64,000 nt of DNA from a virus (lineage: Duplodnaviria; Heunggongvirae; Uroviricota; Caudoviricetes), in IMG/VR virus record IMGVR_UViG_3300028888_000071, positions 22,638 through 86,637 of that record. One strand, 5' to 3'. The notes beneath the pieces were generated by a model. It saw nothing but the letters and a program-made list of their open reading frames with translations. It was not told the origin of the DNA and made no database searches. A program made the position numbers and the translations under genes. This document shows, piece by piece, positions 7,531-41,759 of this stretch (position 1 is its first letter; every line of letters begins with the position of its first letter).

Positions 7531-7571
7531 TATGATTTCAATATTGTTTATTGTCTGGATATAAAGTGTCT

Positions 7572-7584
7572 TAGATGTCATCTA
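7572..7584. promoter_or_regulatory. palindromic element TAGATGTCATCTA (copy 1)
   Basis: Odd palindrome TAGATG-T-CATCTA in a convergent intergenic gap. Shares the 20-nt context AAGTGTC.TAGATGTCATCTA with the copy at 41747. Confidence 0.4.
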
Positions 7585-7586
7585 GC

Positions 7587-8195
7587 TTATTTGGTTTGTT
7601 TTTTGTCAAACACATGTCTGATGAATTCTTCTTGGGCATTCTTGATTGTACCGTTCATGAAGTAGTTGTCGTCAGAAAGAAGCATGTAATGAATGAGGTT
7701 GTAGTTGACGCAGCAGCATTGTGTGACGAATTCTAAGTTGTATCTTTTTATGCACGGACTTATGTTGACATTGAACGGTGATTTCGTTATTATGTCAGTG
7801 TTCATTTTGAAAAGTGGTTTCTGCTTTGTAGAGTCAGCGACTGCTGGCCAGTCAGTTATCTCTTTCTCTATGTCAAAGCTGAACATCTTGTAGATGAACT
7901 CGAATATCTGGGCTCTCATCTTGTATGGAATGTGGTGCATGTCTATGCCATAGAACAAGTTTGACTTCTCTTTGTCTGGGCCGAGCGACATTATGTATGG
8001 CCGAGTGTCAATCATTTTCTTTTTGGCTGATGGCGGAAAATAGTTGAACACATAAAGCTTTCCGGGCCGTATGTCTTGCATCACAAGTGGACATTCTTTC
8101 AAAATGTCAGAAAACGCAAGACTTACTTTTGCTGCCGTCGTGCACTGATAAAGAACTTCTTTGATTTTGTCTCCTATAGAATATAAAGCTGCCAT
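7587..8195 (-). CDS. hypothetical protein (202 aa), probable virion/baseplate-cluster gene
   Basis: ORF in a leftward operon with the gp25-like gene. Confidence 0.45.
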   Translation of the reverse strand: MAALYSIGDKIKEVLYQCTTAAKVSLAFSDILKECPLVMQDIRPGKLYVFNYFPPSAKKKMIDTRPYIMSLGPDKEKSNLFYGIDMHHIPYKMRAQIFEFIYKMFSFDIEKEITDWPAVADSTKQKPLFKMNTDIITKSPFNVNISPCIKRYNLEFVTQCCCVNYNLIHYMLLSDDNYFMNGTIKNAQEEFIRHVFDKKQTK

Positions 8196-8196
8196 G

Positions 8197-8577
8197 TTAG
8201 AATGCGTATGATGTCACTACATAGTCATTTATGATGATGTCAACCACACACATGAATGAACTCTCAATTGTCCGTTCATAGAAGTTGACGTCACACAGCA
8301 CATTGTATCGAGAGTCTTCACTTGACATGACATATTTCCAGATCTGCATGTTGATTTCGTTCCGTATGAAGTCCGCGCTCACATTAGTCTCGAAAATGTA
8401 TTTCTCAAGATCCACACCGAAATCTGGCTGAGCAAGCAGGCTTCCTTTTGGCGTGTAAAGCATGATCTCGATTTTCTGAATTATGTTCACTAGCTTGTCG
8501 TGAATCTCAAGTGCCGTGTCAGAATATCTTGGCGACTCTTCTGATATGCAGAATATTTCATTTATCTGTTGTCCCAT
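8197..8577 (-). CDS. baseplate wedge protein, gp25/GPW-like
   Basis: 126 aa. LYTPKGSLLAQPDFGVDLEKYIFE matches the gp25/GPW core (T..GER...P.FG..L..llFe). Confidence 0.45.
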   Translation of the reverse strand: MGQQINEIFCISEESPRYSDTALEIHDKLVNIIQKIEIMLYTPKGSLLAQPDFGVDLEKYIFETNVSADFIRNEINMQIWKYVMSSEDSRYNVLCDVNFYERTIESSFMCVVDIIINDYVVTSYAF

Positions 8578-8580
8578 TTA

Positions 8581-8898
8581 TTAGTTAAAGTATATGGTAA
8601 CATTGCCTTCATCAATGATGATGTCTATCATGTCATTTTTTCTAATCCTGTCCGTACTAACTCCTTTTGATGGATGCCAGCTATATTCATATCCATTAAG
8701 ATTATGATAACTGCCTCTACTTGTTTCAATGAAACTTATGGCATAATCACCAAAAGCAGACAAAAGATTTGAAAGATATTCTTTCATTTTTTCAGGTGAA
8801 GTATTATAACGAAAACTAAGTTTGACTTGCGGATTAAGTTTAGCCGCTTCGTTTATCTGGTTTCTCGCAATTTCATCAACTTTCATTATTTTTGGCAT
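8581..8898 (-). CDS. hypothetical protein (105 aa)
   Basis: First gene of the leftward operon, downstream of a palindromic TATAAATA box. Confidence 0.45.
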   Translation of the reverse strand: MPKIMKVDEIARNQINEAAKLNPQVKLSFRYNTSPEKMKEYLSNLLSAFGDYAISFIETSRGSYHNLNGYEYSWHPSKGVSTDRIRKNDMIDIIIDEGNVTIYFN

Positions 8899-8916
8899 AC
8901 TGTATTTTTATTTAAA

Positions 8917-8932
8917 TTATTTATATAAATAA
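8917..8932. promoter_or_regulatory. 16-bp perfect palindrome TTATTTATATAAATAA containing T4-late-type TATAAATA in both orientations (putative bidirectional late promoter)
   Basis: The sequence is self-complementary. It lies 20 nt upstream of ATG 8951 (+) and about 20 nt upstream of the divergent gene starting at 8898 (-). Confidence 0.4.
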
Positions 8933-8950
8933 TGAAAACAATATTTAGTA

Positions 8951-9478
8951 ATGAGATACATAAAGACATTTGAAGCATACGGTTCCGGATCGTCATTAGA
9001 TGCGGTGACTACAATGTTGTCATTTATGGCGAAGCTTGGCAGTGGGATGCAGCAGAAGCTTGCTCAAGCGAAACTTGACTGCATACAAGAAGTGACATGC
9101 ACGCCGTTAGCAGAACTGTTTGACGAAGAGACGATAGAGAAGATAAAGAGAAGAGTGCATCCCGTCGTCAAAGAATGCTATGCAAATGCACTGCACACTG
9201 CAGAATGCTTGGTAGAGCAAAATGTTGAATACTGTGAAGGGTATATCATATTCCAAGGCATTCCCATTGAGCACGCATTCAACAAGATTGGAGACAAATA
9301 CTTTGACGTCACACAAGAACTTGCAATCGGTCATGATCCGTCAGAGCAGACATATGCAGTCATTGGATCTTGGGATCCAGAAACTGCTTTGATGGTGATG
9401 GCAAGCGGCCCTTACCAGTGCTATGGCGAAGTCTTCGACAAAGAGTTCATCGAGAACAACAAAGAGAATGTAAGATAA
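8951..9478 (+). CDS. hypothetical protein (175 aa)
   Basis: ORF preceded by a TATAAATA box. Confidence 0.5.
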   Translation: MRYIKTFEAYGSGSSLDAVTTMLSFMAKLGSGMQQKLAQAKLDCIQEVTCTPLAELFDEETIEKIKRRVHPVVKECYANALHTAECLVEQNVEYCEGYIIFQGIPIEHAFNKIGDKYFDVTQELAIGHDPSEQTYAVIGSWDPETALMVMASGPYQCYGEVFDKEFIENNKENVR

Positions 9479-9484
9479 ACAATT

Positions 9485-10108
9485 ATGAAAGTATTAGACA
9501 CAAACCAATTCATTTCTGAACGAATGAAAATCAGACCGGTGACTAATGCAGAACTGGACCAGATCCAGCAAGACATAGAAAACATGAAGTATGAACTCAC
9601 CGATAAAACAAAAAACATAGGAGACGGCACAACATTATATTGCATCAGAGCACTTAAAGACATCCCATCAGTAGAAGTCAAAAAAGGAGACTTAGGTGGC
9701 TGGATTGAGTCGTATGACAATCTAGACCAGAAAGGAGACTGCTGGGTTGCAGATGATGCTCGCGTGTTTGACCACGCTAGAGTGTATGGCAATGCTCAAG
9801 TGTATGGCCGTGCTGAAGTGTATGGCAATGCTAAAGTGTATGGCGATGCTAATGTATATAGTTTTGCTTATGTGTATGGTGACGCAGAAGTGTATGACAA
9901 TGCAAAAGTGTGTGGTCACACTTATGTGCACGATAAAGCTAAAGTGTATGACGCTGCCCAAGTCAATGGTTATGCTCATGTATTTGGCAACGCTAAAGTG
10001 TATAACAATGCTAAAGTGTATGGCAATACTTATGTATATGGCAATGCTCAAGTGCATGGCACTGCTGAAGTCAACTATGATGTCAAAGATAAAAGTATAG
10101 ACAAATAA
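9485..10108 (+). CDS. leader-domain + VYGNAx hexapeptide-repeat protein (family member 1)
   Basis: N-terminus MKVLDTNQFISERMKIRPVTNAELDQIQQD, then GDLGGWIESYDNLDQKGDCWVADDA, then about 50 tandem 6-aa units ((V)YGNAK/VYGDAE) encoded by 18-bp tandem repeats. Confidence 0.7.
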   Translation: MKVLDTNQFISERMKIRPVTNAELDQIQQDIENMKYELTDKTKNIGDGTTLYCIRALKDIPSVEVKKGDLGGWIESYDNLDQKGDCWVADDARVFDHARVYGNAQVYGRAEVYGNAKVYGDANVYSFAYVYGDAEVYDNAKVCGHTYVHDKAKVYDAAQVNGYAHVFGNAKVYNNAKVYGNTYVYGNAQVHGTAEVNYDVKDKSIDK

Positions 10109-10201
10109 AATATAAAATGAATAGCAAGCCGCCTGACTGACGGCTTTTTTAGTCTATAAAAAACACACATTAAATTTATTATTTATTCAAATACTGCATA
10201 C

Positions 10202-10226
10202 TTTTGTTATATTCAATTATAAATTA
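10202..10226 (+). promoter_or_regulatory. conserved promoter-like motif TTTTGTTATATTCAATTATAAATT
   Basis: Member of a family of at least 13 sites, located about 6-40 nt upstream of start codons. Confidence 0.45.
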
Positions 10227-10231
10227 TTGGA

Positions 10232-12444: not shown

Positions 12445-12446
12445 CC

Positions 12447-13077: not shown

Positions 13078-13080
13078 GTT

Positions 13081-13104
13081 TTTTGTTATATTCAATTATA
13101 AATA
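13081..13104 (+). promoter_or_regulatory. conserved promoter-like motif TTTTGTTATATTCAATTATAAATA (also contains TATAAATA)
   Basis: 20 nt upstream of ATG 13124. Confidence 0.45.
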
Positions 13105-13123
13105 TGACAAATAGATATGACTT

Positions 13124-18394: not shown

Positions 18395-18424
18395 ACCTAT
18401 AAATATTAAAACATAAAAACATAA

Positions 18425-19378
18425 ATGAAAATAAAGACATTATCAGAATATTCATTATCAATGTCAGTGAATGAAAACGCGAACTATAGTGGAAACATTC
18501 CCGCAAATGTCGCACGGTGTTTTGACAAGCTTTATTTTAGTGCATTTGACAACACAGAAAATGTGCAGATCTCGGCAAATGATAGAAACAGCACTTTGCT
18601 TGTCCGCAACTGCAAAGAACTTTATATGACAGTCAACGCAGCGTGCCGACTTGCTGACACTGATTGGTTCATATATTTCGAAGAACCTGTAGACTTGACA
18701 CTTGGTTCAGGGACACGCGGTTCTGACAAGATGTGGTTTGGCAATGAAGATGTCAGCAAAGTCCTGACTTGGCTTGCTTCAAATAAAGGCAACACATTCA
18801 ACAAGTTCACGGTGTACCGGTTTGACCTTGATGGTTATGATGGATTCACTGATGGCTTTCTTGATATGATTTACACGAACGAGCTTTGTTTCAAACAGTG
18901 TTCTCATTTGTTGAGTATGCAACTTCCTGACAAGACTGCGTTCAAGAACAAAGGACTTAAGTTCAATTCAGACGCGCCAAGAGCAAACACATTTTTCGCA
19001 GAAAATGGTTTGCTTACAGGCACAGCAGATGAAGTGAAGAGACATATGAGAAAAAGCTTCTTGAAAGATTTCGAGCATAAACAAGCCATAGAAAGTGAGG
19101 AGAGAGAACTAATTGAACAGTCAAGACTGCATCCACACAACATATATACATATAACTCTGATGAAACACATTACTGTGACTTGCGTGGAACCACACTTGA
19201 TTGGCGCTTTTCATCAGTAGATGACTACAAACGAAACTGGCCAAAAGACCTTGATATTGTAGATGGAATGTACATCAATGTTGATGATGAAACATTCAAG
19301 ATAACTAGTCATGATGTGATGGCAGGACCATTTGTCGATGGAGGAGTGTTGGTTGAACTTTCTTTAGAAAGAGCATAA
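18425..19378 (+). CDS. hypothetical protein (317 aa)
   Basis: ORF with no motif I can name. Confidence 0.5.
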   Translation: MKIKTLSEYSLSMSVNENANYSGNIPANVARCFDKLYFSAFDNTENVQISANDRNSTLLVRNCKELYMTVNAACRLADTDWFIYFEEPVDLTLGSGTRGSDKMWFGNEDVSKVLTWLASNKGNTFNKFTVYRFDLDGYDGFTDGFLDMIYTNELCFKQCSHLLSMQLPDKTAFKNKGLKFNSDAPRANTFFAENGLLTGTADEVKRHMRKSFLKDFEHKQAIESEERELIEQSRLHPHNIYTYNSDETHYCDLRGTTLDWRFSSVDDYKRNWPKDLDIVDGMYINVDDETFKITSHDVMAGPFVDGGVLVELSLERA

Positions 19379-19650
19379 TTCTTTGTTTCATTAAAACAAA
19401 ACTAGAATTTCATCTAATGACATCTATGACACTTTCTTGTCTTAAATATATAATTATATTAAATGATTTATAAATTCACTAGATGTCATCTAGATTGCTT
19501 TAAGTTCTAGAGTTCTCCAAAATCTAAAGTCATTCTAAAGTCATCTAAAAAGAAAAATCCTCCATTATTTAGATATAATCCAGATTTTGAATGTTTTTCA
19601 TATAATGAATTATATAATAACAAGTTACGATGAAAAAACTTTTAAAACAA
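19379..19650. promoter_or_regulatory. AT-rich noncoding region with iteron-like (A)GTCATCTA repeats and palindromes (candidate origin/regulatory hub)
   Basis: About 270 nt without a credible ORF between convergent genes. Contains tttcatctaatgacatcta, ctagatgtcatctag, agtcattctaaagtcatcta, and two cctccatt hairpin cores. Confidence 0.35.
19479..19493. promoter_or_regulatory. palindromic element CTAGATGTCATCTAG (copy 2)
   Basis: 15-nt palindrome. Same core as 7572 and 41747. Confidence 0.4.
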
Positions 19651-19653
19651 AAA

Positions 19654-19672
19654 AGCCTCCATTGTGGAGGCT
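19654..19672 (-). terminator. rho-independent terminator for the leftward gene 19697-20374
   Basis: Hairpin agcctcca-ttg-tggaggct, preceded on the + strand by aaaaaa (a U-run on the minus transcript). Confidence 0.5.
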
Positions 19673-19696
19673 TCTTCATATGTTGTGTAGTGTGTC

Positions 19697-20425: not shown

Positions 20426-22372
20426 TTACAGTTTTGCGTTGAACATGTTCATTCCGCCGATGTTTCCAGCTCCGACAGCATACAGGCTTTTGTAGTCTGT
20501 GTTCTGGTCACCCTGCTCTCCGATTATCGTTATGATTTCGTGGAATGCATTTTCATCTTTCTCCAATTCAAAATCAGCCATCCATTCGAACTCCCTCGTG
20601 TCAAAGAACGCGTTTGCGTCGACACACGTCATCACTCTGTCGTCGTGGTCAGTGATTGCTGCCCAGCTGTTGCCGTTCCGTCCGAACAAGTTGAACTCTT
20701 GTATGGTGTTCTCTTCGTGGATCACCATGCGCCCATTGCCGATGTTCTTTTTCGCGTTCTGGCAATATATCAGCTTGTTGTCCCTGTTGAGTCTCAGTCC
20801 GGGCTCCAGTTTCTGGCTGTCTATGCTTCTCTTGAATCTCAATATAGTCGACACATCAAAGTCATTCCTGTCTCCAAACACTGTCTTGAGGCAGTTGAGG
20901 ACTTCGCCGCCAAAAGCATTCCATTCAAGAAGAATCTTCACGTTTTCTGGATTGAACACATTGTGTGAAAGTATGTAAAGCATTTTCGCGAACTGCATCA
21001 GGTGAATCCTGTTGTAAGCGAACATTCCGACTTGCTCCAGTCCGACGAAGTCTCTCGGATTGTTCGGAGCTTTTATGTTCTCCCAGTCTTTCTTGTCCAT
21101 CACTCTCATCTTGAACACATTGAGAACGGTGTTGTCACCCCCGTTGCCTTCTGACAAGTCGACGCTGAACAAGAACATGTCATCAGAATGCTTCGCCTCT
21201 TCTGGCTCGAAGTCTTGTTTCCATCTCAACAATGCAGCTTCATCAATCTCAGCATCTTCAAAGTCTGCGATCGGCTTTTCTACAAATATTTCTTTGTCTT
21301 CTTCAAGTCGTTTCAATGCATTCGGGCCAAGTAATAAACTACCTGTACTTAAGAATGAGTTGCCATATTGAGCGCCAAACCGTTCACGTCCAAGTTCTTC
21401 GTCGCCATTGCCAAGCTGAGCAATCTGGGTGTCCATCCAGTCGGGGCCTCTAAGTTTCCAGCATTTGTTCACTTTGTCCCAGTCAGGCACTTGCCACCAG
21501 TCTATGCGGAACGGCACGAATGAGTTTATGCCTTTTGTCGCAGCATCATATATCTTGTAGAAACGGTTCATTCCGTTTGGCGTCGAGGTGACTATGATTT
21601 TGCTGTCAGGCAGAGATGACACTGTCGGGTAGATGTTGTCGAAGAACTCGTCGATGATTCCCTTGTCCACATGCGCGAACTCATCCAAATACAAGCAGTG
21701 TATCGTGAAGCCGATGCCAGCTCTTTTAGTCGTCGCAGCGCCCATAAGTCTGCAGCCATTGTCGAACTTCCATTCAAGTGACGAGCCCTTTATGACTCCG
21801 GGCTTCATGTAGAACGGGACATTCTTTATCACATCAACAACCTTTCCGAGAATGTCGACTGCAGTCTTCTCGATGTTGCCGCACAAGAAGCAAGTCTTGT
21901 CGTAATTGAATAGAAGATACCAAGCGAGATATATAGATGAAGATATGGTGTTGTGGCTCAATATGCCGTTTGTGTAGTACCTGTGGTTCTCGTCATTCAC
22001 CATCAAGTCGTACATGCAGTGCTTGTATGGAAGCTGCTCAACTGATTTTACTGCGACTGCGCCATTGTCTGTGAACAACGTGTCTCCTGGCGTCAAGTCT
22101 CTAGTGAACTTTTCTCGCAAGTCTGATGTGAAGAAGACATGATCATCGGCACATTCTATCTCAATGCCATTCTCAAGAGTCACTCTCCACACCTGGTAGG
22201 GCACTGTACGGTGGACAAACATTGCTGCAGAATGTCCTTCATCTGTCGAAACCTCATCTTCAACTGGTTCTACACGAATGAACTTGTTGTCTATGACTGG
22301 ACAGTCCTTCCACATCAAGTATTCTATTTTCTCTATAAGTTTTCCGATTATGTTCTTTATAAATTTTCTCAT
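20426..22372 (-). CDS. terminase large subunit, C-terminal piece (P-loop Thr onward: ATPase remainder + nuclease), preceded by a 141-aa intein C-terminal segment
   Basis: After ...YDLMVNDENHRYYTNGILSHN|T the protein aligns with T4 gp17 from the P-loop Thr. LYLDEFAHV (Walker B) and IIVTSTPNGMNRFYKIY (gp17 IIITTTPNGLNHFYDIW) are present. There is no Walker A in this ORF, and three in-frame stops lie immediately upstream. Confidence 0.7.
   Translation of the reverse strand: MRKFIKNIIGKLIEKIEYLMWKDCPVIDNKFIRVEPVEDEVSTDEGHSAAMFVHRTVPYQVWRVTLENGIEIECADDHVFFTSDLREKFTRDLTPGDTLFTDNGAVAVKSVEQLPYKHCMYDLMVNDENHRYYTNGILSHNTISSSIYLAWYLLFNYDKTCFLCGNIEKTAVDILGKVVDVIKNVPFYMKPGVIKGSSLEWKFDNGCRLMGAATTKRAGIGFTIHCLYLDEFAHVDKGIIDEFFDNIYPTVSSLPDSKIIVTSTPNGMNRFYKIYDAATKGINSFVPFRIDWWQVPDWDKVNKCWKLRGPDWMDTQIAQLGNGDEELGRERFGAQYGNSFLSTGSLLLGPNALKRLEEDKEIFVEKPIADFEDAEIDEAALLRWKQDFEPEEAKHSDDMFLFSVDLSEGNGGDNTVLNVFKMRVMDKKDWENIKAPNNPRDFVGLEQVGMFAYNRIHLMQFAKMLYILSHNVFNPENVKILLEWNAFGGEVLNCLKTVFGDRNDFDVSTILRFKRSIDSQKLEPGLRLNRDNKLIYCQNAKKNIGNGRMVIHEENTIQEFNLFGRNGNSWAAITDHDDRVMTCVDANAFFDTREFEWMADFELEKDENAFHEIITIIGEQGDQNTDYKSLYAVGAGNIGGMNMFNAKL
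21950..22372 (-). mobile_element. intein (Hint domain) C-terminal portion: blocks B, F, G ending His-Asn, +1 Thr
   Basis: VWRVTLENGIEIECADDHVFFT (block B T..H motif), LTPGDTL, MYDLMVNDENHRYYTNGILSHN (blocks F/G) immediately before the extein Thr. Confidence 0.6.
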
Positions 22373-22384: not shown

Positions 22385-23380
22385 TCAACGGTTACGTGTG
22401 CTTTGTGGCTCATTGAATCCAGGAACCTTCACTGTGTAGTCGATGTCTTTGTCTTGGTTAGACATGATGTTCGTCTTCGGGAACATCTTGTCAAACGTGA
22501 TGTCGCTGTGCACTTCACCGCCTTTGATTTGCTCATCAAGCTCGGTGATGTTGTGTTCAGTCCCGTCACCGACATGAAATTTCGTGAGAAGGCCGCCAGG
22601 ATAGATTCCGACATTTCCATACTCGTCAGAGCGGAATGTCATTATCGTGCCTTCGTTCTTCTTCACCATGTCGTATATCTCATCGAATATGATTCCATGC
22701 TCAAACACTGGCATGAAGCTTTTCACCTCTATGGCGAAAGACACTTTGTATTCTTTCTGCCCGTCCATCGCGAACTCAAGCGGCCGTTCTTGTGAGTAGT
22801 CGACTGGAAGCTGGTAAGAAGCCTGGACATGCATCATTCCCAAGTCAACATAGAACACATTGACTGCATACAGCTTTGACATGACTGATTCTGTCACCTT
22901 CAGCATTTCAAGCTGAGACGAGCAGACCATGTCACAAGTGAACGAAAGGTTGAGCGGCAAGAAGCAAGTGCGGAGATAGAATGTCTTCAGCATCCCGTCT
23001 ACTTCATGCACGAATCTCGCTTGTATGAACTTGTTCATCTGGCTGCCAGAATCTATAGATATGGACTGTATGTTGAGGACGCCTCTCGGCACTTTCTCAT
23101 AGTCGCCGATTGCTTTGCCGTTGTCGATTGAGTCATACATGAACTCGTCTTTCAAGAATCTCTCACTGCCTGTGATCGAGTGCATGAAAGGGATGTCCAC
23201 TCTCTCAGAAGTGCCGTCTGCAAGATGCTGGTATATGTATATCTTGTCTCTCAATTCAGCAAGCAAAGCTACGATTATGTATCTCACTACTGAATTGTCA
23301 TAGTTCTTCGTCTGGTTGTAAGTGTTAGCTGACATATAAACATATATAAAATATTTATATTCCAGTATATAAATAAACAA
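22385..23380 (-). CDS. hypothetical protein (331 aa), possibly a virion structural protein
   Basis: Same strand and frame as the terminase C-piece but separated by TGA-TAA-TAA. No terminase motifs. Confidence 0.5.
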   Translation of the reverse strand: MFIYILEYKYFIYVYMSANTYNQTKNYDNSVVRYIIVALLAELRDKIYIYQHLADGTSERVDIPFMHSITGSERFLKDEFMYDSIDNGKAIGDYEKVPRGVLNIQSISIDSGSQMNKFIQARFVHEVDGMLKTFYLRTCFLPLNLSFTCDMVCSSQLEMLKVTESVMSKLYAVNVFYVDLGMMHVQASYQLPVDYSQERPLEFAMDGQKEYKVSFAIEVKSFMPVFEHGIIFDEIYDMVKKNEGTIMTFRSDEYGNVGIYPGGLLTKFHVGDGTEHNITELDEQIKGGEVHSDITFDKMFPKTNIMSNQDKDIDYTVKVPGFNEPQSTRNR

Positions 23381-25403: not shown

Positions 25404-25430
25404 TGGTTCGATGATTCGGAACACTACAAA

Positions 25431-25461
25431 AGAAGGAGATTCTAAGTCTCCTTCTTTTTTT
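25431..25461 (+). terminator. rho-independent terminator
   Basis: agaaggaga-ttctaag-tctccttct, then ttttttt. Confidence 0.6.
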
Positions 25462-25477
25462 ATGTAAAGCTGCTTGA

Positions 25478-25504
25478 TTTTTTATTATATTAAATTGTAT
25501 TCAT
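25478..25504 (+). promoter_or_regulatory. promoter-like motif variant TTTTATTATATTAAATTGTATTCAT
   Basis: 13 nt upstream of ATG 25517. Confidence 0.4.
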
Positions 25505-25516
25505 AAAATTACAGTT

Positions 25517-27130: not shown

Positions 27131-27132
27131 TC

Positions 27133-29914: not shown

Positions 29915-29940
29915 TTTTTTGTTATATTCAATTTGTAAAC
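29915..29940 (+). promoter_or_regulatory. conserved promoter-like motif TTTTTTGTTATATTCAATTTGTAAAC
   Basis: 20 nt upstream of ATG 29961. Confidence 0.45.
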
Positions 29941-31243: not shown

Positions 31244-32785
31244 ATGGCAACACCAACAATTTTCATCATCGTCGCAGCAGTATTGCTCGTCCTCGCAGTC
31301 TTAATCGCAATCTGTTATGTGAAGGCTCCGCCCAAAGACGCTTTCATCATCTCAGGCCTTTCGCGCCAGCCGAGAATCCTCATCGGCAAAGGCGGGTTCA
31401 GAATCCCTGGCCTTGAACGAGTCGACAAAGTGTTTCTCGGGCAGACATCAGTCGACATCAAGACATCAACGCCAGTCCCGACAAATGATTTCATCTCTGT
31501 CATGGTTGACGCTGTCGCAAAGATCAGAGTAATCAACACGCCTGACGGGATCCGCCTTGCAGCCAAGAACTTCCTGAACATGACGGAACGTGACATTGCT
31601 GTGCAGATCCAAGATTCATTAGAAGGCAACATGCGTGAGATCATCGGCACACTTGACCTGAAGTCGCTCAACATCGACCGTGACGGTTTCTCCGACCAAA
31701 TCGCGAAGAAAGCAGCGCCTGATATGGAGAAGCTTGGCATCGAGGTGATTTCATGCAACATCCAGAACATCACTGACAATGAAGGCCTCATCAAGAACCT
31801 TGGTGCTGACAATACCTACAAGATCCGCAAGGAAGCTTCCATCACCAAGGCACAAGCTGAGCGTGACATCGCAATCGCAGAATCTGAAGCTGCTAAGGAA
31901 GCAAATGACGCACGAGTCTACAATGAGACAATCATCGCCGAGAAGAACAACGAACTTGCTGTCAAAAAAGCAAACCTCAAAGTGATTGAAGACACTCAGA
32001 AAGCAAAGGCTGATGCTGCTTACGAAATCCAGAAGCAAGAGCAGCAGAAGACAGTGAACGAGAAGACGGTCGATGCTGAAGCGACAAAGATGCTGCTGCA
32101 GCAAGAACGCCAGAAGGAAATCAACTCTGCTGCAGTTGAAGCTGAAACGGAAAAAGCCAGAAAAGAGCAAGAACTGACTCAAGAGCAAGTCAAGATCCAG
32201 AAAAACAGACTTGAGGCTGAAATCCAGAAGAAAGCCGATGCTGACAAATACCAGAAAGAAATCACCGCTTCTGCTGAACTCGAGCAACGCAAACGCAAGG
32301 CTGAAGCTGAAGCATATGAAGCTGAACAGCGTGCCCGTGCAGTGAAAGCTCAAGCAGAAGCAGAACAATATAGGATGGAGCAAGAGGCTCTCGGCAAGAA
32401 GAAACTCGCCGATGCTGCTGCTTATGAAATCGAGCAGAAAGGCCTTGCTGAAGCTGCAGCAATCGAAAAGAAAGGCCTTGCAGAAGCAGAAGCAATGGAG
32501 AAGAAAGCCCTCGCGTTCCAGAAATATGGTGATGCAGCAAAGGCTCAGATGGTTATCGAGAAGCTCCCGCAGATTGCTGAATCTGTCGCCAAACCGATCT
32601 CCGCTATCAAAGACGTGAGAATCTACGGCGCAGACGGAAACGGCATCAACGCAATCTCAGGCAATGTGCCGACTGTCATCAAGCAGACAATGGACACTGT
32701 TGCTGACGCTACCGGAGTTGACATGCAGAAAATCGTCTCTCAATCAACACTTGAAGGCGCAGTGAAACGCACTGCTAAAGAGTAA
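31244..32785 (+). CDS. SPFH/band-7 (flotillin-like) membrane protein with long coiled-coil
   Basis: N-terminal transmembrane segment IFIIVAAVLLVLAVLIAICYV. SPFH-like core (IISGLSRQPRILIGKGGFRIPGLE...DFISVMVDAVAKIRV). Long Ala/Glu/Lys/Gln-rich coiled coil (AEAEAYEAEQRARAVKAQAEAEQYR). Confidence 0.6.
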   Translation: MATPTIFIIVAAVLLVLAVLIAICYVKAPPKDAFIISGLSRQPRILIGKGGFRIPGLERVDKVFLGQTSVDIKTSTPVPTNDFISVMVDAVAKIRVINTPDGIRLAAKNFLNMTERDIAVQIQDSLEGNMREIIGTLDLKSLNIDRDGFSDQIAKKAAPDMEKLGIEVISCNIQNITDNEGLIKNLGADNTYKIRKEASITKAQAERDIAIAESEAAKEANDARVYNETIIAEKNNELAVKKANLKVIEDTQKAKADAAYEIQKQEQQKTVNEKTVDAEATKMLLQQERQKEINSAAVEAETEKARKEQELTQEQVKIQKNRLEAEIQKKADADKYQKEITASAELEQRKRKAEAEAYEAEQRARAVKAQAEAEQYRMEQEALGKKKLADAAAYEIEQKGLAEAAAIEKKGLAEAEAMEKKALAFQKYGDAAKAQMVIEKLPQIAESVAKPISAIKDVRIYGADGNGINAISGNVPTVIKQTMDTVADATGVDMQKIVSQSTLEGAVKRTAKE

Positions 32786-32846: not shown

Positions 32847-32873
32847 ATAAATAAACAAATGAATATATGCAAT

Positions 32874-33566: not shown

Positions 33567-33571
33567 AAAAT

Positions 33572-34291: not shown

Positions 34292-34295
34292 AAAT

Positions 34296-34994: not shown

Positions 34995-34998
34995 AAAC

Positions 34999-35490: not shown

Positions 35491-35491
35491 T

Positions 35492-35986: not shown

Positions 35987-35997
35987 AACATACTTTC

Positions 35998-37722: not shown

Positions 37723-37725
37723 ACG

Positions 37726-38193: not shown

Positions 38194-38210
38194 TGTGCAA
38201 AATCCCAGAA

Positions 38211-38237
38211 TTATTTGTTATATCAAATTACAAATAG
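38211..38237 (+). promoter_or_regulatory. promoter-like motif variant TTATTTGTTATATCAAATTACAAATAG
   Basis: Lies within the last codons of the preceding ORF, 9 nt upstream of ATG 38246. Confidence 0.35.
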
Positions 38238-38245
38238 CAAATAAA

Positions 38246-39544
38246 ATGAAAGGGACTTTACATTTCAGCTTGGGAGAGAATTTCGGGATATTGTTGCAGA
38301 ACATCGCGCATGAACACTTGTTCTGCTCACTTGATCCAGAAAAAGCAGTCGACACTCTTGTCGGCAGTGGCTGCCCGGAGGAACATGTCTTGAAGATTCT
38401 CAAAAACAAACTTTATCTCACTTCTAAAGATGATGAGGTTTTCATCGTTCCAGAAGACAGACTCCCTGAAGGACATCTTGAGGAATACCACAAGTTCAAC
38501 CCGAATTTCATTTTCGACAAACTGAACGGCTTTGGCAGCAGTCCTCTCATTGAACAGGGATATTATTTCCAGAAACATCTGTATGAGTTTTTCGCAAATC
38601 ATCTGCTGTATTACATCAATGTCGATGCTGCGCAGACAATGATGAACTTGCCGGAAGGCTATGACTGGGAACTCAAGACTAAACTGTCGCCACTTGACAT
38701 CGCCCACATCTGGCTTGACAACAAGTCTGGAATGAAAGAGATTTTGGAGAATGCTGAGATCACAAAGTGCTTCTCACAGAGAGTGAGTGACATTTTCAAC
38801 GAGCTTGAGGGACTCAGGAAATTCGTCACTGATGGCTACAGACTTATCCACCTGAAAAACTGGTGGATTGAAAACCGCATGGGAGCTGCGCCAAGCGAGT
38901 TCCCGAGATTTGAAGAAACTGTATGCCAGCTTGCTGGCTTGCTTGATGTCCTGCAAGAACTTGATGATGACAAGATTCATGCTTGGGTGGAGTCTCACAA
39001 GTATCTTGAAGAATCTAATTCTGTAGTAGACAAAGGCATGGTAAACAAAGATGTGGACACTCCTATGGACGATTTGCTCAACCGCAGATTTGGTGGCGTC
39101 ACTGATGAAAGAGACATCATCGAACCAGTTGAATGGGATCATGAATGGACGGCAGGCTTCATCGACAGAGAAGGCCACGTCTATGCTATGGATGAACACG
39201 AATCCAGGCTTGCTCATGTCGAACTTGCTGACGCTTATTATGAAAAATATCCAGACACACCGGTGTTTGAGAAAAACAGAGACTGGTCGCTTGACAGGCT
39301 TGGCTGGGTCAGGTTCCATGACGGCAAGATCCGCTATCACGGGTATTGCCTCGTCGACTGCGGGCATGCGATGAGAGACCTTCCGCTCACATCAAGGCAG
39401 AAAGAGAGACTTGCCCAGTATGCTGAACAGTTCTATCCAAACGGACTTCGCAATGAAGGCATCGGTGATGAAGATGTGAGAATCACAGCTGAAGACTGGA
39501 GAACGATGACTGATGATGAGTTTAGAAAAATTTTTGAAATATAA
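38246..39544 (+). CDS. hypothetical protein (432 aa)
   Basis: ATG at 38246 (MKGTLHFS...) is the first ATG after the motif. The ORF track extends to 38171. Confidence 0.5.
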   Translation: MKGTLHFSLGENFGILLQNIAHEHLFCSLDPEKAVDTLVGSGCPEEHVLKILKNKLYLTSKDDEVFIVPEDRLPEGHLEEYHKFNPNFIFDKLNGFGSSPLIEQGYYFQKHLYEFFANHLLYYINVDAAQTMMNLPEGYDWELKTKLSPLDIAHIWLDNKSGMKEILENAEITKCFSQRVSDIFNELEGLRKFVTDGYRLIHLKNWWIENRMGAAPSEFPRFEETVCQLAGLLDVLQELDDDKIHAWVESHKYLEESNSVVDKGMVNKDVDTPMDDLLNRRFGGVTDERDIIEPVEWDHEWTAGFIDREGHVYAMDEHESRLAHVELADAYYEKYPDTPVFEKNRDWSLDRLGWVRFHDGKIRYHGYCLVDCGHAMRDLPLTSRQKERLAQYAEQFYPNGLRNEGIGDEDVRITAEDWRTMTDDEFRKIFEI

Positions 39545-39554
39545 TTATGAGTAG

Positions 39555-41135
39555 TCATTTCACTCGTATGATTGTGCCGTCATCTAGCTTTATTATGTCT
39601 CCTGATGCAGCAAGGTAGTCTATAGTTATAGTCCTGCCGTCAGAAAGACTAAGCAAAGTAGTGTCGGTGTCGGGATCGTAGTCAGTGCCGAGGTCGATGT
39701 CATAGTCTTCGCCATCATCGAACGTGAAGTCGCTTTCGTCTAAATCGGTCGCACCGGCAATCTCATCAGCAGGCATGTAGTAATATCTTTTGCCAGCTGA
39801 ATCTGTGAACGGGCCAGAATCCTTGCGATATCCGCCGATCCAGTAGCTTTTCTTCAACTGCCCGTCTTCCATGTATGTCCTTGCATAGTCTTTCCTGCAG
39901 TAGCACTTGAAGCCATTTATCTTTATTTCATGGTTAGCCCAGTCTACTTCAGCATCAGCATACATGTATCCGGCAAGCTTTGTCTCGTCTTTGTTGTCTT
40001 CGTCTTTTGGCTTCTCGTGTTTGAGATACCATTTCTGCCTTTTGCGCAAAGCTTTGACTGCTTGGCGGAATGCTTTTTCAGAGTCGGCTTGCTTTGCTTC
40101 AAACATCTCGCATAGTTTCTTGAATGCGGGTATGAAGTCTTTTATGGCAAAGCCAAGTGCTGTCGCTATAGCAATTATCTCTTTTATGTAGTTGACTATT
40201 TTCTTTGTGTCAGTGAGGACTTTCTTCATGTTCTCCATGAACACCATCACTTTCTGTGCTGGATTCGGGACGCCTGTCGCTGCGCCAGCGACAATCACAT
40301 CAGGGTTCGGTATCTTAGCAACCAGTGTGCTTATGTCTGTGCTGAGTTCTGTGAATGACTCTTTGAAGTTTTCGAATATCCTGTCTATCTTGTCGCATTC
40401 TTCTTCGACGAAAGCATCACCCGGGCCGCCGTCTTGGAAATACTTTTTCGCTTCTTTCTTCACTGACTTGAACAGTTCGACAGTGTCGTTGTATGCGTCT
40501 TCAGTCTCTTTGACGAGCCTGTCCATTTTCTCTTTCTCTTTGTCTGCCCAGTCAGCATATGAGCTAAGCAGCATTTTCTTGACTACTTCCAGTGATTCTT
40601 TCTTTGCCGTGCTTTTCTTTGCTTCAGTCTCTTTTTCAGCAGCTTCATTCGCTTTCTTCTTTTCTTTCCCTGATATTTTCTTGAACTTCGTTATGATGTC
40701 AATCTTCGTCTCCTTCTTTATTTTCTCAATGTCTGCAAAATAAGTGTCCCACACTTCATCTTGCTTTCTGCCGTATTCATTGTTCGTGATGCCAAGCGCT
40801 TGCTTTCTGACAGACTGCGCTTCATTGTCTTCATATTCTTGCTTCAATCGTGACAGTTCTGACTCTCTTTTCTTCGCAGCTTGCTCTACAAGTTCATTGT
40901 ACAGCTTTGCTGCTTTGAGGTATTCTTCTGTGTATATTGAATTTCCATCAAGGTTTTTAGCAGACTCTTTCAGTTTGTCTATCTGCTCATTCAGCATGTC
41001 CATGCTTGGCATCGGCGGCGGCGTGAAATTGGGTATATGGGGAGCGCTCGGCATCTTTATGCCGCATTGGTCTATGTATTTGCTTATCAGAAAAACTTTT
41101 ATCGCTTTGCGCATCGGCGCAGTCACTATGCCCAT
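39555..41135 (-). CDS. coiled-coil-rich protein (526 aa), possibly an internal virion / tail-assembly protein
   Basis: Long Lys/Glu-rich helical segments (ESELSRLKQEYEDNEAQ..., KKANEAAEKETEAKKSTAKKE). A hydrophobic central segment. C-terminal Asp/Thr/Tyr-rich beta-like region. Confidence 0.45.
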   Translation of the reverse strand: MGIVTAPMRKAIKVFLISKYIDQCGIKMPSAPHIPNFTPPPMPSMDMLNEQIDKLKESAKNLDGNSIYTEEYLKAAKLYNELVEQAAKKRESELSRLKQEYEDNEAQSVRKQALGITNNEYGRKQDEVWDTYFADIEKIKKETKIDIITKFKKISGKEKKKANEAAEKETEAKKSTAKKESLEVVKKMLLSSYADWADKEKEKMDRLVKETEDAYNDTVELFKSVKKEAKKYFQDGGPGDAFVEEECDKIDRIFENFKESFTELSTDISTLVAKIPNPDVIVAGAATGVPNPAQKVMVFMENMKKVLTDTKKIVNYIKEIIAIATALGFAIKDFIPAFKKLCEMFEAKQADSEKAFRQAVKALRKRQKWYLKHEKPKDEDNKDETKLAGYMYADAEVDWANHEIKINGFKCYCRKDYARTYMEDGQLKKSYWIGGYRKDSGPFTDSAGKRYYYMPADEIAGATDLDESDFTFDDGEDYDIDLGTDYDPDTDTTLLSLSDGRTITIDYLAASGDIIKLDDGTIIRVK

Positions 41136-41176
41136 AAATACAACATTAAAAATTCAAGATATTTATAAATAATTCC

Positions 41177-41200
41177 GTTTTGTTATATTAAAATTGTAAT
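41177..41200 (+). promoter_or_regulatory. conserved promoter-like motif GTTTTGTTATATTAAAATTGTAAT
   Basis: 21 nt upstream of ATG 41222. Confidence 0.45.
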
Positions 41201-41221
41201 GAAAAACATAATTTGTAGAAT

Positions 41222-41647
41222 ATGAAGATAAAGCCTGTCACAAACACCGAATTTGATGAACTGAAGAAGAAATACAGTGTGGACACTGAAAAGCTGAAGC
41301 CTGTAGATCCGGCGTTGAAGAACTGGGGGCCTGATGACTTCGTCAACTGGGATGAAGTCCAGAATTTCGTCTACCATAGTCACGAGTTTGTAGATAGAAA
41401 CATCGAAAAATGCAATAGAGAGCGTGTGCCCGAAAACTGGCGCTGCTCAATCTGCCAGAAAGAACTCAAACATGGCTACAAGACACTTTACTGGAAATCA
41501 CCCACTGAAGAAGAATGTCTTGCAGACAACCGCGGATCGTCTTCAAGATGGTATGCTGTTCCAGCTAATGACCGTGAAGAAGTCAAAGTCGGAAACACTT
41601 GCTTCAAAGCATTCGCTAAAGCACACAAGAAAATCTACGGAAAATAA
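41222..41647 (+). CDS. short-leader family member 12 (IKPVTN motif) with Cys-rich putative zinc-binding region
   Basis: MKIKPVTNTEFDELKKKY. CNRERVPENWRCSICQKELKHGY and C...C later in the sequence. Confidence 0.45.
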   Translation: MKIKPVTNTEFDELKKKYSVDTEKLKPVDPALKNWGPDDFVNWDEVQNFVYHSHEFVDRNIEKCNRERVPENWRCSICQKELKHGYKTLYWKSPTEEECLADNRGSSSRWYAVPANDREEVKVGNTCFKAFAKAHKKIYGK

Positions 41648-41674
41648 TAGAACCTCACATAATTGTAAATGAAA

Positions 41675-41704
41675 TCAACTAGATGATGTCTAGTTGATTT
41701 TTTT
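41675..41704 (+). terminator. rho-independent terminator
   Basis: tcaactaga-tgatg-tctagttga, then ttttttt. The stem sequence is related to the TAGATG..CATCTA palindrome. Confidence 0.6.
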
Positions 41705-41746
41705 ATCTTTGTAATTAAATTATATATCAGCATAGCAAAAGTGTCA

Positions 41747-41759
41747 TAGATGTCATCTA
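41747..41759. promoter_or_regulatory. palindromic element TAGATGTCATCTA (copy 3)
   Basis: The context aagtgtcaTAGATGTCATCTAat matches 7565-7585 at 19 of 20 positions. Confidence 0.4.

What the first reader, a model, noticed from the sequence alone, without database searches (positions are those of the whole stretch)
7565..41759. Recurrent palindrome TAGATGTCATCTA at operon boundaries and an iteron-like noncoding hub
The odd palindrome TAGATG-T-CATCTA occurs at 7572-7584, 19479-19493 (as CTAGATGTCATCTAG) and 41747-41759. The copies at 7565 and 41740 share the longer context AAGTGTC(T/A)TAGATGTCATCTA. All three lie in noncoding gaps where transcription direction changes. A related hairpin (tcaactaga..tctagttga) forms the terminator at 41675. 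The 19379-19650 gap additionally contains four or five (A)GTCATCTA half-site repeats in 150 bp and no credible gene. The pattern suggests a site-specific DNA-binding protein target (regulator, partition or origin-binding), or sites for a nicking/recombination enzyme.
Basis: seen in the sequence. Interest (0 to 1): 0.55.

Follow-up and report, generated by a model that had tools for sequence, protein, structure and literature searches.

The report
Paired-box boundary cassettes in a megaphage
The recurring palindrome is real, but it is only part of a conserved cassette of about 100 bp (terminator hairpin, AT-rich spacer, invariant 19-bp box) found three times at operon ends of a Lak-related huge phage; it is most likely a docking site for a sequence-specific DNA-binding protein, and its exact job is unproven.

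Summary
The conserved unit is larger and asymmetric. It is a 90-110 bp cassette made of box 1 (TAGATGAnnTCTRG), a ~45-nt AT-rich spacer, and box 2 (the 19-mer AAAGTGTCWTAGATGTCAT). In cassettes A and C, box 1 sits inside the intrinsic terminator of the upstream gene. There are three cassettes: A at 7490-7589 (+), B at 19402-19493 (-) and C at 41671-41771 (+). All 11 noncoding TAGATG hexamers in the window fall in these three gaps. In orthologous gaps of relatives the 19-mer is 19/19 identical while flanks diverge, the palindrome half decays, and one terminator loop is flipped. Box spacing is 65-68 bp in 10 of 11 copies, including an unrelated ~45-kb phage group. There is no Rfam hit, no covariation and no coding signal. 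The palindromes are weak RNA hairpins. Best reading: paired recognition boxes for a DNA-binding protein in a portable, PeSL-like boundary cassette. B and C also carry a sigma-70-like promoter. An origin, a domesticated MITE and a small RNA remain live rivals.

The parts
7490..7527 (+). Cassette A: hairpin that terminates the upstream + gene (DUF285, 7004-7474). It is followed by T-runs on both strands, so it can terminate in both directions.
   Evidence: RNA fold -21.1 (+) and -19.4 (-) kcal/mol, z -4.6 and -4.9. The stem ATGCACCAGA/TCTGGTGCAT is conserved in orthologs, with one G-U-compatible change for each strand.
7507..7520 (+). Cassette A box 1, TAGATGATTTCTGG. It covers the loop and 3' arm of the terminator.
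   Evidence: Invariant columns TAGATGA..TCT.G in alignment A1. The loop is inverted in ortholog L188.
7563..7581 (+). Cassette A box 2, the 19-mer AAAGTGTCTTAGATGTCAT. The palindrome 7572-7584 overlaps it. It ends 5 nt before the stop codon of the convergent gp2-like late gene (7587-8195, -).
   Evidence: It is 19/19 identical in L187, L188 and L190-192, whose gp2-like proteins are 85-75% identical to the window's.
19479..19493 (-). Cassette B box 1, CTAGATGACATCTAG.
   Evidence: As an RNA hairpin it is weak (-4.4 kcal/mol, z -0.8). TAGATGACATCTA is conserved in L201 and L167.
19436..19478 (-). Cassette B AT-rich spacer. On the + strand, 19426-19454 reads ATGACA-17-TATAAT.
   Evidence: 11 of 12 match to the sigma-70 consensus. 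The same hexamers and spacing occur in L201 and L167.
19417..19435 (-). Cassette B box 2, the 19-mer AAAGTGTCATAGATGTCAT.
   Evidence: L201 has AAAATGTCATAGATGTCAT and L167 is identical.
19402..19416 (-). Cassette B tail, TAGATGAAATTCTAG, a second box-1-like motif. Homology with other phages ends here or within 25 nt of it.
19494..19645 (-). Conserved noncoding segment upstream of cassette B. It holds further TAGATG-type sites, an 11-nt tandem repeat (19523-19544) and a promoter-like TTGTTATTATATAAT.
   Evidence: It is 93-95% identical to two tandem copies in L167 but only 73% identical to the close relative L201. Repeats. No covariation.
19650..19676 (-). Terminator hairpin of the late terminase operon (genes 23335 to 19697, - strand). 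It is the border of the gap and not part of the cassette.
   Evidence: Inverted repeat I11. Conserved in L201.
41671..41701 (+). Cassette C: terminator of the upstream gene 41222-41647. It contains box 1, TAGATGATGTCTAG (41680-41693).
   Evidence: Terminator scan. Fold -16.5 kcal/mol, z -5.6. Alignment A1.
41694..41737 (+). Cassette C AT-rich spacer. On the - strand, 41747 to 41719 reads ATGACA-17-TATAAT.
   Evidence: 11 of 12 match. Together with the site in B, these are the only noncoding sites in the window with at least 11 of 12 matches.
41738..41771 (+). Cassette C box 2, the 19-mer AAAGTGTCATAGATGTCAT (41738-41756), with the overlapping palindrome 41747-41759 and the tail CTAATGAATTTCTTG.
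   Evidence: The nhmmer profile hit spans 41670-41771, E 1.9e-17.

Best explanation
Each of the three sites is one copy of a portable intergenic cassette of about 100 bp. The cassette is built around two boxes that are inverted, partly degenerate copies of one recognition sequence, (GTGTCW)TAGATGWCATCTA. The boxes are held 65-68 bp apart by an AT-rich spacer. I propose that a sequence-specific DNA-binding protein, probably phage-encoded and oligomeric, binds both boxes and bridges or wraps the spacer. In this megaphage the cassette sits at operon ends. Box 1 has merged with the intrinsic terminator of the upstream unit (A, C) or follows a short conserved noncoding unit (B). Box 2 faces the 3' end of the next gene. 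In B and C the spacer also holds a sigma-70-like promoter, whose -35 hexamer lies inside the 19-mer and which reads back towards box 1. There the bound protein would act as an operator-type switch on a short antisense or noncoding transcript. The cassette would also insulate neighbouring operons and serve as a patch of homology where gene modules are swapped, as PeSL cassettes do in T4-type phages. What is shown: the anatomy, non-randomness, invariance, fixed spacing, patchy distribution, sequence exchange between phages, and absence of RNA or coding signals. What is inferred: that a protein binds, that the promoter fires, and the regulatory or insulating role.
For: The two-box pattern has 3 matches in the window against 0.00 expected. 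All noncoding TAGATG hexamers lie in these gaps. A profile built from 9 cassettes finds exactly three copies in the window, with E between 1e-17 and 1e-20. The 19-mer is identical in four lineages whose neighbouring protein is 75-85% identical, while spacer and flanks diverge. AGATGA-to-AGATGT spacing is 65-68 bp in 10 of 11 copies. Of 145 contexts fished with the 16-mer, only L001 and L082 (a different ~45-kb phage group) and the B-type cassettes have a second box at -59 to -61. Several results point to DNA rather than RNA recognition. The palindromes fold weakly as RNA (-2.4 to -4.4 kcal/mol, z not significant). There is no covariation and no Rfam family. The terminator loop carrying box 1 is flipped in L188 while the 19-mer stays intact. 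The promoter ATGACA-17-TATAAT scores 11 of 12 in B, C and L201 and 10 of 12 in L148. The B and C sites are the only noncoding sites in the window with at least 11 of 12 matches. The -10 hexamer and the spacing are kept between the window and L201, although the adjacent 26 nt diverge. For the linker role, three different genes abut box 2 of cassette B in the window, L201 and L167. Block B is 94.9% identical to L167 but only 77.1% identical to the close relative L201.
Against: No candidate binding protein was found; Pfam and PHROG scans of 40 window proteins show no obvious regulator or sigma factor. The sigma-70-like promoter is absent from the whole A lineage, which nevertheless keeps the 19-mer perfectly. 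It is also absent from L082, and in L001 a weak promoter points the other way. The phage lacks Shine-Dalgarno sites (4 of 78 genes) and is related to Prevotella Lak phages. This points to a Bacteroidota host, whose main sigma factor is not known to use TTGACA/TATAAT (established knowledge). The phage's own promoter-like classes are different (TGTTATATT and TATAAATA). In 4 of 5 contexts no gene lies downstream of the putative promoter. Relatives at 73-79% (B locus) or at 54% and below (A locus) have plain terminators instead, and about 130 kb from relatives with 80% MCP identity has no copy. The cassette is therefore accessory.
Confidence: 0.4

Rival explanations
1. The sites are replication origins of a multi-origin T4-like genome. 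Initiator-binding boxes flank an AT-rich unwinding element, with a promoter supplying a primer or activating transcript. Gap B, which has extra TAGATG sites and an 11-nt tandem repeat, would be the main origin, and A and C minor ones.
For: Two inverted boxes sit at a fixed distance around a very AT-rich spacer. Gap B has clustered same-orientation TAGATG-type sites at an 11-nt period. Promoter-like sequence lies inside the spacer. The phage has T4-type structural genes and TATAAATA late promoters. From established knowledge, T4 uses several origins that combine a promoter with an unwinding element, and oriE has iterons. In L001 the pair lies in a RecA/glycosylase DNA-metabolism module.
Against: Cumulative GC skew shows only the changes that follow gene orientation. 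There are no long phased iterons, only 2.5 copies of an 11-mer. No initiator gene is recognisable nearby. Cassette B is missing at the same locus in relatives at 79% and 73%, and cassette A is missing at 54% and below.
Confidence: 0.2
2. The cassettes are copies of a miniature inverted-repeat mobile element of about 100-110 bp. Its terminal repeats are the boxes. It has spread among co-occurring phages and has been partly domesticated in the megaphage as a terminator or boundary.
For: L001 and L082 carry 28-31-bp near-perfect terminal inverted repeats around a ~46-nt interior. The ends and the overall length are conserved while the interior varies. Distribution among relatives is patchy. Block B is more similar to a phage with unrelated flanks than to the close relative. 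In L148 the 19-mer part looks inserted inside an A-type hairpin and is flanked by AATTCTA/TAGAATT. An IS605-type TnpB gene exists in a relative.
Against: No target-site duplication was seen. Copies within the genome are old: B and C are 77% identical, and A is more distant. There is at most one exact copy in a 128-kb relative contig. The 19-mer is under strong purifying selection at an orthologous position while the other 'end' decays or flips, which a dead element would not show. No TAGATG lies near the TnpB element.
Confidence: 0.18
3. The functional product is RNA. Gap B encodes one or two small noncoding RNAs: a ~125-nt minus-strand RNA ending at the box 1 hairpin, and/or a plus-strand antisense RNA. 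The boxes would be RNA motifs or processing sites, and A and C would be 3'-UTR copies.
For: Gap B is the largest noncoding gap. It holds a 150-nt block that is 93-95% conserved and tandemly duplicated in L167. A long hairpin has conserved arms and a variable apex, and is better paired on the minus strand because of its G-U pairs. Both strands fold better than shuffles, z -2.5 and -3.3. [quoted passage not shown]
Against: No pair supports the structure by covariation; the covariation term is +1.38. There is no Rfam family. A and C lack the 150-nt block. Sequence, not structure, is what is conserved in box 1: TAGATGA is in the loop in A, in the stem in C, and flipped in L188. The 19-mer is invariant although its palindrome half is not.
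Confidence: 0.12
4. The sites are chance repeats, or simply the stems of ordinary terminators.
For: Box 1 of A and C does lie in genuine terminator hairpins. Short versions of the motif also occur inside genes.
Against: Shuffle controls never reach the observed counts. The palindromes themselves are poor hairpins. Other terminators in the window (for example in gaps 10109-10231, 25404-25516, 42344-42435 and 53434-53481) contain no TAGATG. Box 2 is conserved across lineages.
Confidence: 0.02

Closest known systems
PeSL (promoter-early stem-loop) cassettes of T4-type phages (Arbiol et al. 2010, PMC2839356; Comeau et al. 2014, PMC4122927)
   Same: Both are composite intergenic cassettes conserved over about 100 bp. 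Both combine a terminator stem-loop, an AT-rich stretch and a promoter-like element. Both lie between genes of a T4-related phage and coincide with insertions, deletions and replacements of neighbouring genes between related phages (searches compared).
   Different: PeSLs number about 50 per genome, cluster in hyperplastic regions and sit directly upstream of small ORFs, ending in a Shine-Dalgarno site and ATG. Their conserved core is a strong host sigma-70 promoter. Here there are 3 copies in 64 kb and mostly no downstream ORF. The promoter-like element points back into the terminator and is missing in one lineage. The conserved core is a pair of inverted boxes at fixed spacing.
Paired operators flanking a promoter (repressor looping modules such as gal OE/OI or deo operators)
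   Same: Both have two dyad-symmetric sites at a fixed distance on either side of a promoter-like AT-rich segment, with the sequence of the sites rather than the interval conserved.
   Different: No cognate regulator gene is adjacent. One box is strongly asymmetric and extended (19 bp). The promoter is not constant across the family. The location is at 3' ends of operons rather than upstream of regulated genes, except in L001 and L082.
Iteron-type and promoter-plus-unwinding-element phage origins (lambda ori; T4 oriE, oriF, oriG)
   Same: Both have repeated protein-binding sites next to an AT-rich segment and a promoter. T4-type genomes can carry several per genome.
   Different: There are no long phased iterons, no adjacent initiator gene and no skew signal. 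The cassettes are dispensable at orthologous loci of close relatives.
Correia-type MITEs (Neisseria) and other miniature inverted-repeat elements
   Same: The size is 100-150 bp, with terminal inverted repeats of about 26-31 bp. Both are intergenic, can carry promoter and terminator activity, and have a patchy distribution.
   Different: No target-site duplication was seen. Copies are few and old. There is orthologous purifying selection on one end only.

Membership tests
PeSL cassettes | Conserved composite intergenic motif of about 100 bp | tested here: met
   Alignment A1 and the nhmmer profile define 100-105-nt units.
PeSL cassettes | Strong sigma-70-like promoter as the conserved core, reading into a downstream ORF that has an SD and ATG | tested here: not met
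   ATGACA-17-TATAAT is present in B, C, L201 and L148, but it reads towards the terminator with no ORF downstream in 4 of 5 contexts. It is absent in the A lineage and L082. The phage does not use SD sites.
PeSL cassettes | Stem-loop with terminator or attenuator potential | tested here: met
   A and C hairpins fold at -21.1 and -16.5 kcal/mol with z below -4.5 and have T-runs. The B hairpin is weak.
PeSL cassettes | Tens of copies per genome, clustered in hyperplastic regions | tested here: not met
   There are 3 copies in 64 kb, 1 exact copy in a 128-kb relative contig, and none in about 130 kb of relatives with 80% MCP identity.
PeSL cassettes | Coincide with gene insertions, deletions or replacements between related phages | tested here: met
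   A 1-kb insertion carrying the 317-aa gene lies next to cassette B relative to L201. A different gene lies there in L167.
PeSL cassettes | Formation of mini-circles by recombination between copies | not testable with these tools
   This needs inverse PCR or long reads from infected cultures.
Iteron-type replication origin | Three or more phased direct repeats of about 17-22 bp next to an AT-rich unwinding element | tested here: inconclusive
   The AT-rich spacer is present. The only direct repeats are an 11-nt unit in 2.5 copies plus scattered TAGATG sites.
Iteron-type replication origin | Compositional skew inflection at the site | tested here: not met
   Cumulative GC skew changes only in step with gene-strand blocks.
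Iteron-type replication origin | Adjacent initiator gene; origin activity | not testable with these tools
   Neighbouring genes have no informative family. Activity needs an experiment.
MITE / Correia-like element | Terminal inverted repeats and a total length of 100-150 bp | tested here: met
   L001 and L082 have 28-31-bp arms. The window copies are imperfect: arms of 27 nt are 74% complementary in C, and there is a 10-bp perfect core in B.
MITE / Correia-like element | Target-site duplication and clean empty sites in relatives | tested here: inconclusive
   No flanking duplication was seen. Relatives lacking the cassette are too diverged to define an empty site.
MITE / Correia-like element | Many near-identical copies within a genome | tested here: not met
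   B and C are 77% identical over 87 nt, and A is more distant.
Ordinary intrinsic terminator | Stable G+C-containing hairpin followed by a U-run | tested here: not met
   This holds for the palindromes at 7572, 19480 and 41747, which fold at -2.4 to -4.4 kcal/mol with z not significant. The feature is met only by the separate hairpins that contain box 1 in A and C.
Known RNA family (Rfam 15) | Score at or above the family gathering threshold | tested here: not met
   There are no hits in the whole window. In the gap there are only sub-threshold hits driven by the terminator.
Dimeric-repressor operator | Conserved dyad symmetry of the site | tested here: inconclusive
   There is a perfect 13-bp dyad in A box 2, C box 2 and B box 1, and an 11-bp dyad in L001 and L082. 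The right half is lost in B, L148, L167 and L188 box 2.

The most novel reading that the evidence does not exclude
The paired boxes, 67 bp apart, are the cis-site of a previously undescribed, horizontally mobile DNA-protein module. Unrelated phages of one habitat share it: Lak-related megaphages and a ~45-kb phage group. It could be a new family of phage MITE-like elements whose ends have been co-opted. Alternatively, it could be a polar boundary or loading site, analogous to Ter/Tus or to a clamp-loading nick site, that organises replication and late transcription at the junctions of convergent operons in huge phage genomes.
Probability: 0.15. Interest if true: 0.75.

Novelty: new variant of a known kind. 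Interest (0 to 1): 0.5.

Why it matters
Huge Lak-type phages are uncultured, and almost nothing is known about how their genomes of several hundred kilobases are transcribed, replicated or partitioned into modules. This work defines a short, invariant cis-element with fixed geometry, alongside two candidate promoter classes for the same genome. That gives a concrete handle. A 19-bp or two-box probe could be used to pull down the cognate protein from metagenome-derived expression libraries. Mapping public metatranscriptome reads could test promoter, terminator or small-RNA activity. The element could also serve as a marker for tracing module exchange between phages in rumen and gut communities. 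If the element proves mobile or acts as an origin, it would add a new kind of non-coding functional element to megaphage biology.

Tried and rejected
1. tRNA or tmRNA: none.
2. Rfam families: none.
3. DNA similarity to 50,697 annotated phage records: only chance-level short hits.
4. Host or bacterial copies: the two-box pattern is absent from 185,579 genomes. The 18-mer gives 19 hits in unrelated taxa with no second box and no similarity to the window, which is about the number expected by chance (my own estimate).
5. Micro-ORF on the reverse strand: MTS(M/K)TL... is 18 aa in the window, L201 and L167 at B, but length and frame are not kept in the A lineage or in C (sequence inspection). Rejected.
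6. The 43-aa ORF starting at 19630: it spans the terminator and overlaps the 225-aa gene on the other strand, and in L167 copy 2 it stops after 5 codons. Rejected.
7. Site-specific inversion between the oppositely oriented 19-mers (A+/B-, B-/C+): six independent contigs of the same phage cross A, B or C only in the window's arrangement. No support.
8. Relic of a DUF285 repeat: AAAGTGACCGAGATGTCAT codes KVTEMS in DUF285 genes of L200. The resemblance is 3-4 mismatches and the orientation relative to DUF285 genes is not constant. Dropped.
9. Relation to the IS605/TnpB element of relative L200: no TAGATG near it.
10. Host Bacteroidota -7 motif TAnnTTTG: not systematically present upstream of genes or in the cassettes.
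11. Shared protein between the megaphage and the L001/L082 group as a candidate binder: none in the fragments held.

Full report
CONTEXT. The window is part of a huge phage. Its gp23-type major capsid protein (59322-61094, minus strand) is 44% identical to that of a 462-kb uncultured phage and 33% identical to Prevotella Lak megaphages. Closer relatives with 80% identity include a 413-kb IMG/VR genome. The window carries T4-type genes: large terminase with an intein-like hit, gp2-, gp25- and gp15-like proteins. A greedy ORF call gives 78 genes and only 3,491 noncoding bases. Just 4 of 78 genes have a Shine-Dalgarno-like 4-mer, which fits a Bacteroidota-type host. Two promoter-like classes are visible upstream of genes. 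One is a T-run followed by TGTTATATT, seen before 9 start codons. The other is the T4-late-like TATAAATA, 24-32 nt before at least 15 start codons, including those of structural genes. Near-identical pieces of the same phage occur in several rumen and gut type assemblies.

OBSERVATION. TAGATGTCATCTA is exact at 7572, 19480 and 41747. With one mismatch allowed there are 7 hits against 0.12 expected, and no shuffle reaches that number. The half-site GTCATCTA occurs 11 times against 2.6 expected. All 11 noncoding TAGATG hexamers of the window lie in three gaps, 7475-7586, 19379-19696 and 41648-41860; none lie in the other roughly 27 gaps. Gaps B (318 bp) and C (213 bp) are the two largest noncoding gaps. 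Three corrections apply. First, site C lies between two plus-strand genes, not at a change of direction.

ANATOMY. I aligned the three window sites with two copies from other contigs (alignment A1). This shows one oriented unit made of four parts:
- Box 1, TAGATGAnnTCTRG.
- An AT-rich spacer of about 45 nt (consensus TAATATAATTATATAT).
- Box 2, the 19-mer AAAGTGTCWTAGATGTCAT.
- A tail resembling box 1 (TAGATGAAATTCTAG in B).
The two-box pattern matches three times in the window against 0.00 expected. The cassettes are A (plus strand, 7490-7589), B (minus strand, 19493-19402) and C (plus strand, 41671-41771). The palindromes at 7572 and 41747 are the 3' part of box 2, whereas the palindrome at 19480 is box 1 of cassette B. 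In A and C, box 1 lies inside the intrinsic terminator of the upstream gene. These hairpins fold at -21.1 and -16.5 kcal/mol with z of -4.6 and -5.6, and the A hairpin is equally good on the other strand with T-runs on both sides. The palindromes themselves are poor RNA hairpins, at -2.4 to -4.4 kcal/mol with z not significant, so they are not ordinary terminator stems. Box 1 and box 2 are partial inverted copies of each other. An nhmmer profile of nine cassettes finds exactly three copies in the window, with E between 1e-17 and 1e-20.

COMPARATIVE EVIDENCE.
Site A. The gap between the gp2-like and DUF285 genes was recovered from relatives whose gp2-like protein is 85%, 77% and 75% identical. 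The 19-mer is 19/19 identical in all of them, while the spacer and flanks have diverged. In L188 the right half of the palindrome is lost (GTCATTTAG). The terminator stem is kept, but in L188 its loop, which carries TAGATGA, is inverted. In relatives at 54% identity and below, the same gap is a plain bidirectional terminator with no cassette.
Site B. L201 is the closest relative: its neighbouring protein is 96% identical and its flanks are 86-94% identical in DNA. It has the cassette with one change in the 19-mer (AAAATGTC...). It lacks the 317-aa gene 18425-19378. Relative to L201, the window therefore carries a 1-kb insertion with its own TATAAATA promoter, beginning 10-25 nt beyond the cassette tail. 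Relatives at 79% and 73% have no cassette at that locus. A 128.6-kb contig (L004/L167) has the B block at 94.9% identity, with its first 150 nt tandemly duplicated, between genes unrelated to those in the window. The close relative L201 is only 77.1% identical over the same columns. This incongruence indicates exchange of the block between phages.
Other copies. A 43.5-kb contig (L003/L148), whose terminase N-terminus is only 42% identical, has an A-type copy that looks rearranged.
Searches. Exhaustive pattern scans found no further copies in IMG/VR, JGI metagenome contigs or 185,579 genomes. The exceptions below came out of the chance background. About 130 kb from relatives with 80% MCP identity has none.
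Second phage group. Two loci from a different group of ~45-kb phages (L001 and L082, both from IMG/VR sample 3300045988, G+C 47-48%, genes with Shine-Dalgarno sites) carry two inverted copies of CTTAGATGTCATCTGG with 28-31-bp arms around a ~46-nt spacer, upstream of a gene. Among 145 contexts fished with the 16-mer, only these two and the B-type cassettes have the second box at -59 to -61.
Spacing. Across all lineages the AGATGA-to-AGATGT distance is 65-68 bp in 10 of 11 copies. The exception is the flipped loop of L188.

WHAT IT IS NOT. There are no tRNA or tmRNA genes and no Rfam families. RNAalifold on four versions of the conserved part of gap B gives a long hairpin whose arms never vary. 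The covariation term is unfavourable at +1.38. Small ORFs on either strand are not kept in frame or length across lineages. Cumulative GC skew follows the gene-strand blocks and shows no special inflection at 19.4 kb. Six independent contigs cross the cassettes only in the window's arrangement, so there is no sign of inversion between the oppositely oriented 19-mers.

MECHANISM. The constant features are two sequence-specific boxes and the distance between them. The interior, the RNA-folding potential and the neighbouring genes all vary. The simplest explanation is a protein, or protein complex, that reads the DNA sequence of both boxes. This step is an inference; no binding protein could be named.

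Read from box 2 towards box 1, cassettes B and C contain ATGACA-17-TATAAT, an 11 of 12 match to the sigma-70 consensus, with the -35 hexamer inside the 19-mer. The same hexamers and spacing occur in L201 and L167, and L148 has AAGACA-16-TATAAT. The B and C sites are the only noncoding sites in the window with at least 11 of 12 matches; 4 sites in total were found, with about 2 expected. Between the window and L201 the -35 to -10 interval is better conserved than the 26 nt that follow. This suggests an operator-flanked promoter that fires into the preceding terminator. In gap B it would fire across the conserved 150-nt block, giving short antisense or noncoding RNA.

This promoter reading is weakened on several counts. 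The whole A lineage lacks the -10 hexamer yet keeps the 19-mer perfectly. L082 has no such promoter, and L001 has only a weak one pointing the other way. A Bacteroidota host sigma factor is not expected to use this consensus (established knowledge). I therefore put 0.4 on the general claim, a protein-recognised paired-box boundary cassette with a regulatory or insulating and recombination-linker role, and less on the promoter detail.

The rivals are as follows:
- Replication origins (0.2). The architecture and the T4 precedent fit. The skew, the dispensability in relatives and the lack of long iterons do not.
- A domesticated MITE-like element (0.18). The terminal repeats, size, patchiness and exchange between phages fit. 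No target duplication was found, the copies are few and old, and one end is under purifying selection.
- Small RNA genes, especially in gap B (0.12). This is supported by the precedent of highly expressed intergenic regions in Lak phages, but not by covariation.
- Chance or ordinary terminators (0.02).

COMPARISON WITH KNOWN SYSTEMS. The closest described objects are the PeSL cassettes of T4-type phages. These are conserved terminator-plus-promoter units of about 100 bp that mediate modular shuffling (PMC2839356, PMC4122927). The cassettes here share the size, the composite nature, the terminator and the association with gene indels. They fail the defining features of a host sigma-70 promoter reading into a downstream ORF and of high copy number in hyperplastic regions. 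The element works like a PeSL in some respects but is not a member of that family. It also resembles operator pairs, iteron or promoter-type origins, and Correia-type MITEs; the membership tests give the result for each defining feature.

VERDICT. Its kind, a conserved composite intergenic cassette and probable protein-binding site, is known. This variant is not described: paired inverted boxes at fixed 65-68-bp spacing, fused to terminators at operon ends of a Lak-related megaphage and shared with an unrelated phage group. The function remains unproven. Interest is 0.5.

Noticed in passing
window genes starting at 9485, 23396, 24031, 27071(-), 32859, 33572, 34296, 34999, 37726, 43560(-), 57812(-); also L167 608-790 and 1096-1300: At least 11 proteins of otherwise different length and content share a ~35-aa N-terminus, MKILDTSQFVSERMKIRPVTNAELDQIQQDM, with up to 80% DNA identity between copies. 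Several continue into beta-solenoid or bactofilin-like repeats. Assemblies of this phage break at one such gene (about 9.5-9.8 kb). This may be a targeting or assembly signal of a large paralogous family.
   Followed up: partly
window-wide, e.g. 10203-10211, 13084-13092, 29920-29928, 41817-41825 (TGTTATATT); 8924-8931, 18398-18405, 23355-23380 region (TATAAATA): There are two sharply defined promoter-like classes. One is a T-run plus TGTTATATT(C/A)AAT, 27-52 nt upstream of 9 genes. The other is the T4-late-like TATAAATA(A/T), about 24-32 nt upstream of at least 15 genes, including capsid, baseplate and terminase operons. Neither matches the Bacteroidota -33/-7 consensus.
   Followed up: partly
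window 18397-19401: A 1-kb insertion carries a 317-aa ORF of unknown family with its own TATAAATA promoter. It is absent from the 96%-related contig L201 and behaves like a moron cassette placed next to cassette B.
   Followed up: yes
whole window (78 called genes): Only 4 of 78 genes have a Shine-Dalgarno-like 4-mer upstream, and the upstream regions are A-rich. Stop codons are TAA 51, TGA 20 and TAG 7, so standard code 11 gives dense coding here, unlike the TAG-recoded Lak phages.
   Followed up: partly
window 20426-22372 (-): The large terminase has an intein-splicing-domain hit (residues 51-100) ahead of the T4-type terminase N-domain. The closest relative, L179, aligns only from residue 139.
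   Followed up: no
window 3638-5767, 31244-32785, 44302-45828, 45911-46408, 1713-3002: The window has several auxiliary genes that are unusual for a phage: an FtsH-like AAA+/M41 protease, a flotillin/SPFH protein, a RimK-type ATP-grasp enzyme, a dCMP/cytidine deaminase and a C5 cytosine methylase.
   Followed up: no
L200 4754-6365: An IS605-type HTH plus TnpB (OrfB_IS605, Cas12f-like TNB) pair sits in a related huge-phage contig. No TAGATG sites lie near it.
   Followed up: partly
L033 ~9995, L090 ~682, L100 ~4065: In the ~45-kb phage group the same 16-mer also lies inside a homologous ~150-aa ORF, where it reads QMTSKTL. In L001 and L082 of the same group it forms a noncoding inverted pair. 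The relation between the coding and noncoding copies is unexplained.
   Followed up: partly
L167 3483-3909 (= L004 2724-3150): The conserved noncoding block of gap B is tandemly duplicated (two ~190-nt units). Only the second unit ends in a complete cassette. L201 has one fewer 11-nt repeat. The region is length-dynamic.
   Followed up: yes
window 53222-53234: The one-mismatch palindrome CAGATGACATCTA lies inside ORF 53161-53433. This is the variant used by the L001/L082 group. It is probably chance.
   Followed up: partly
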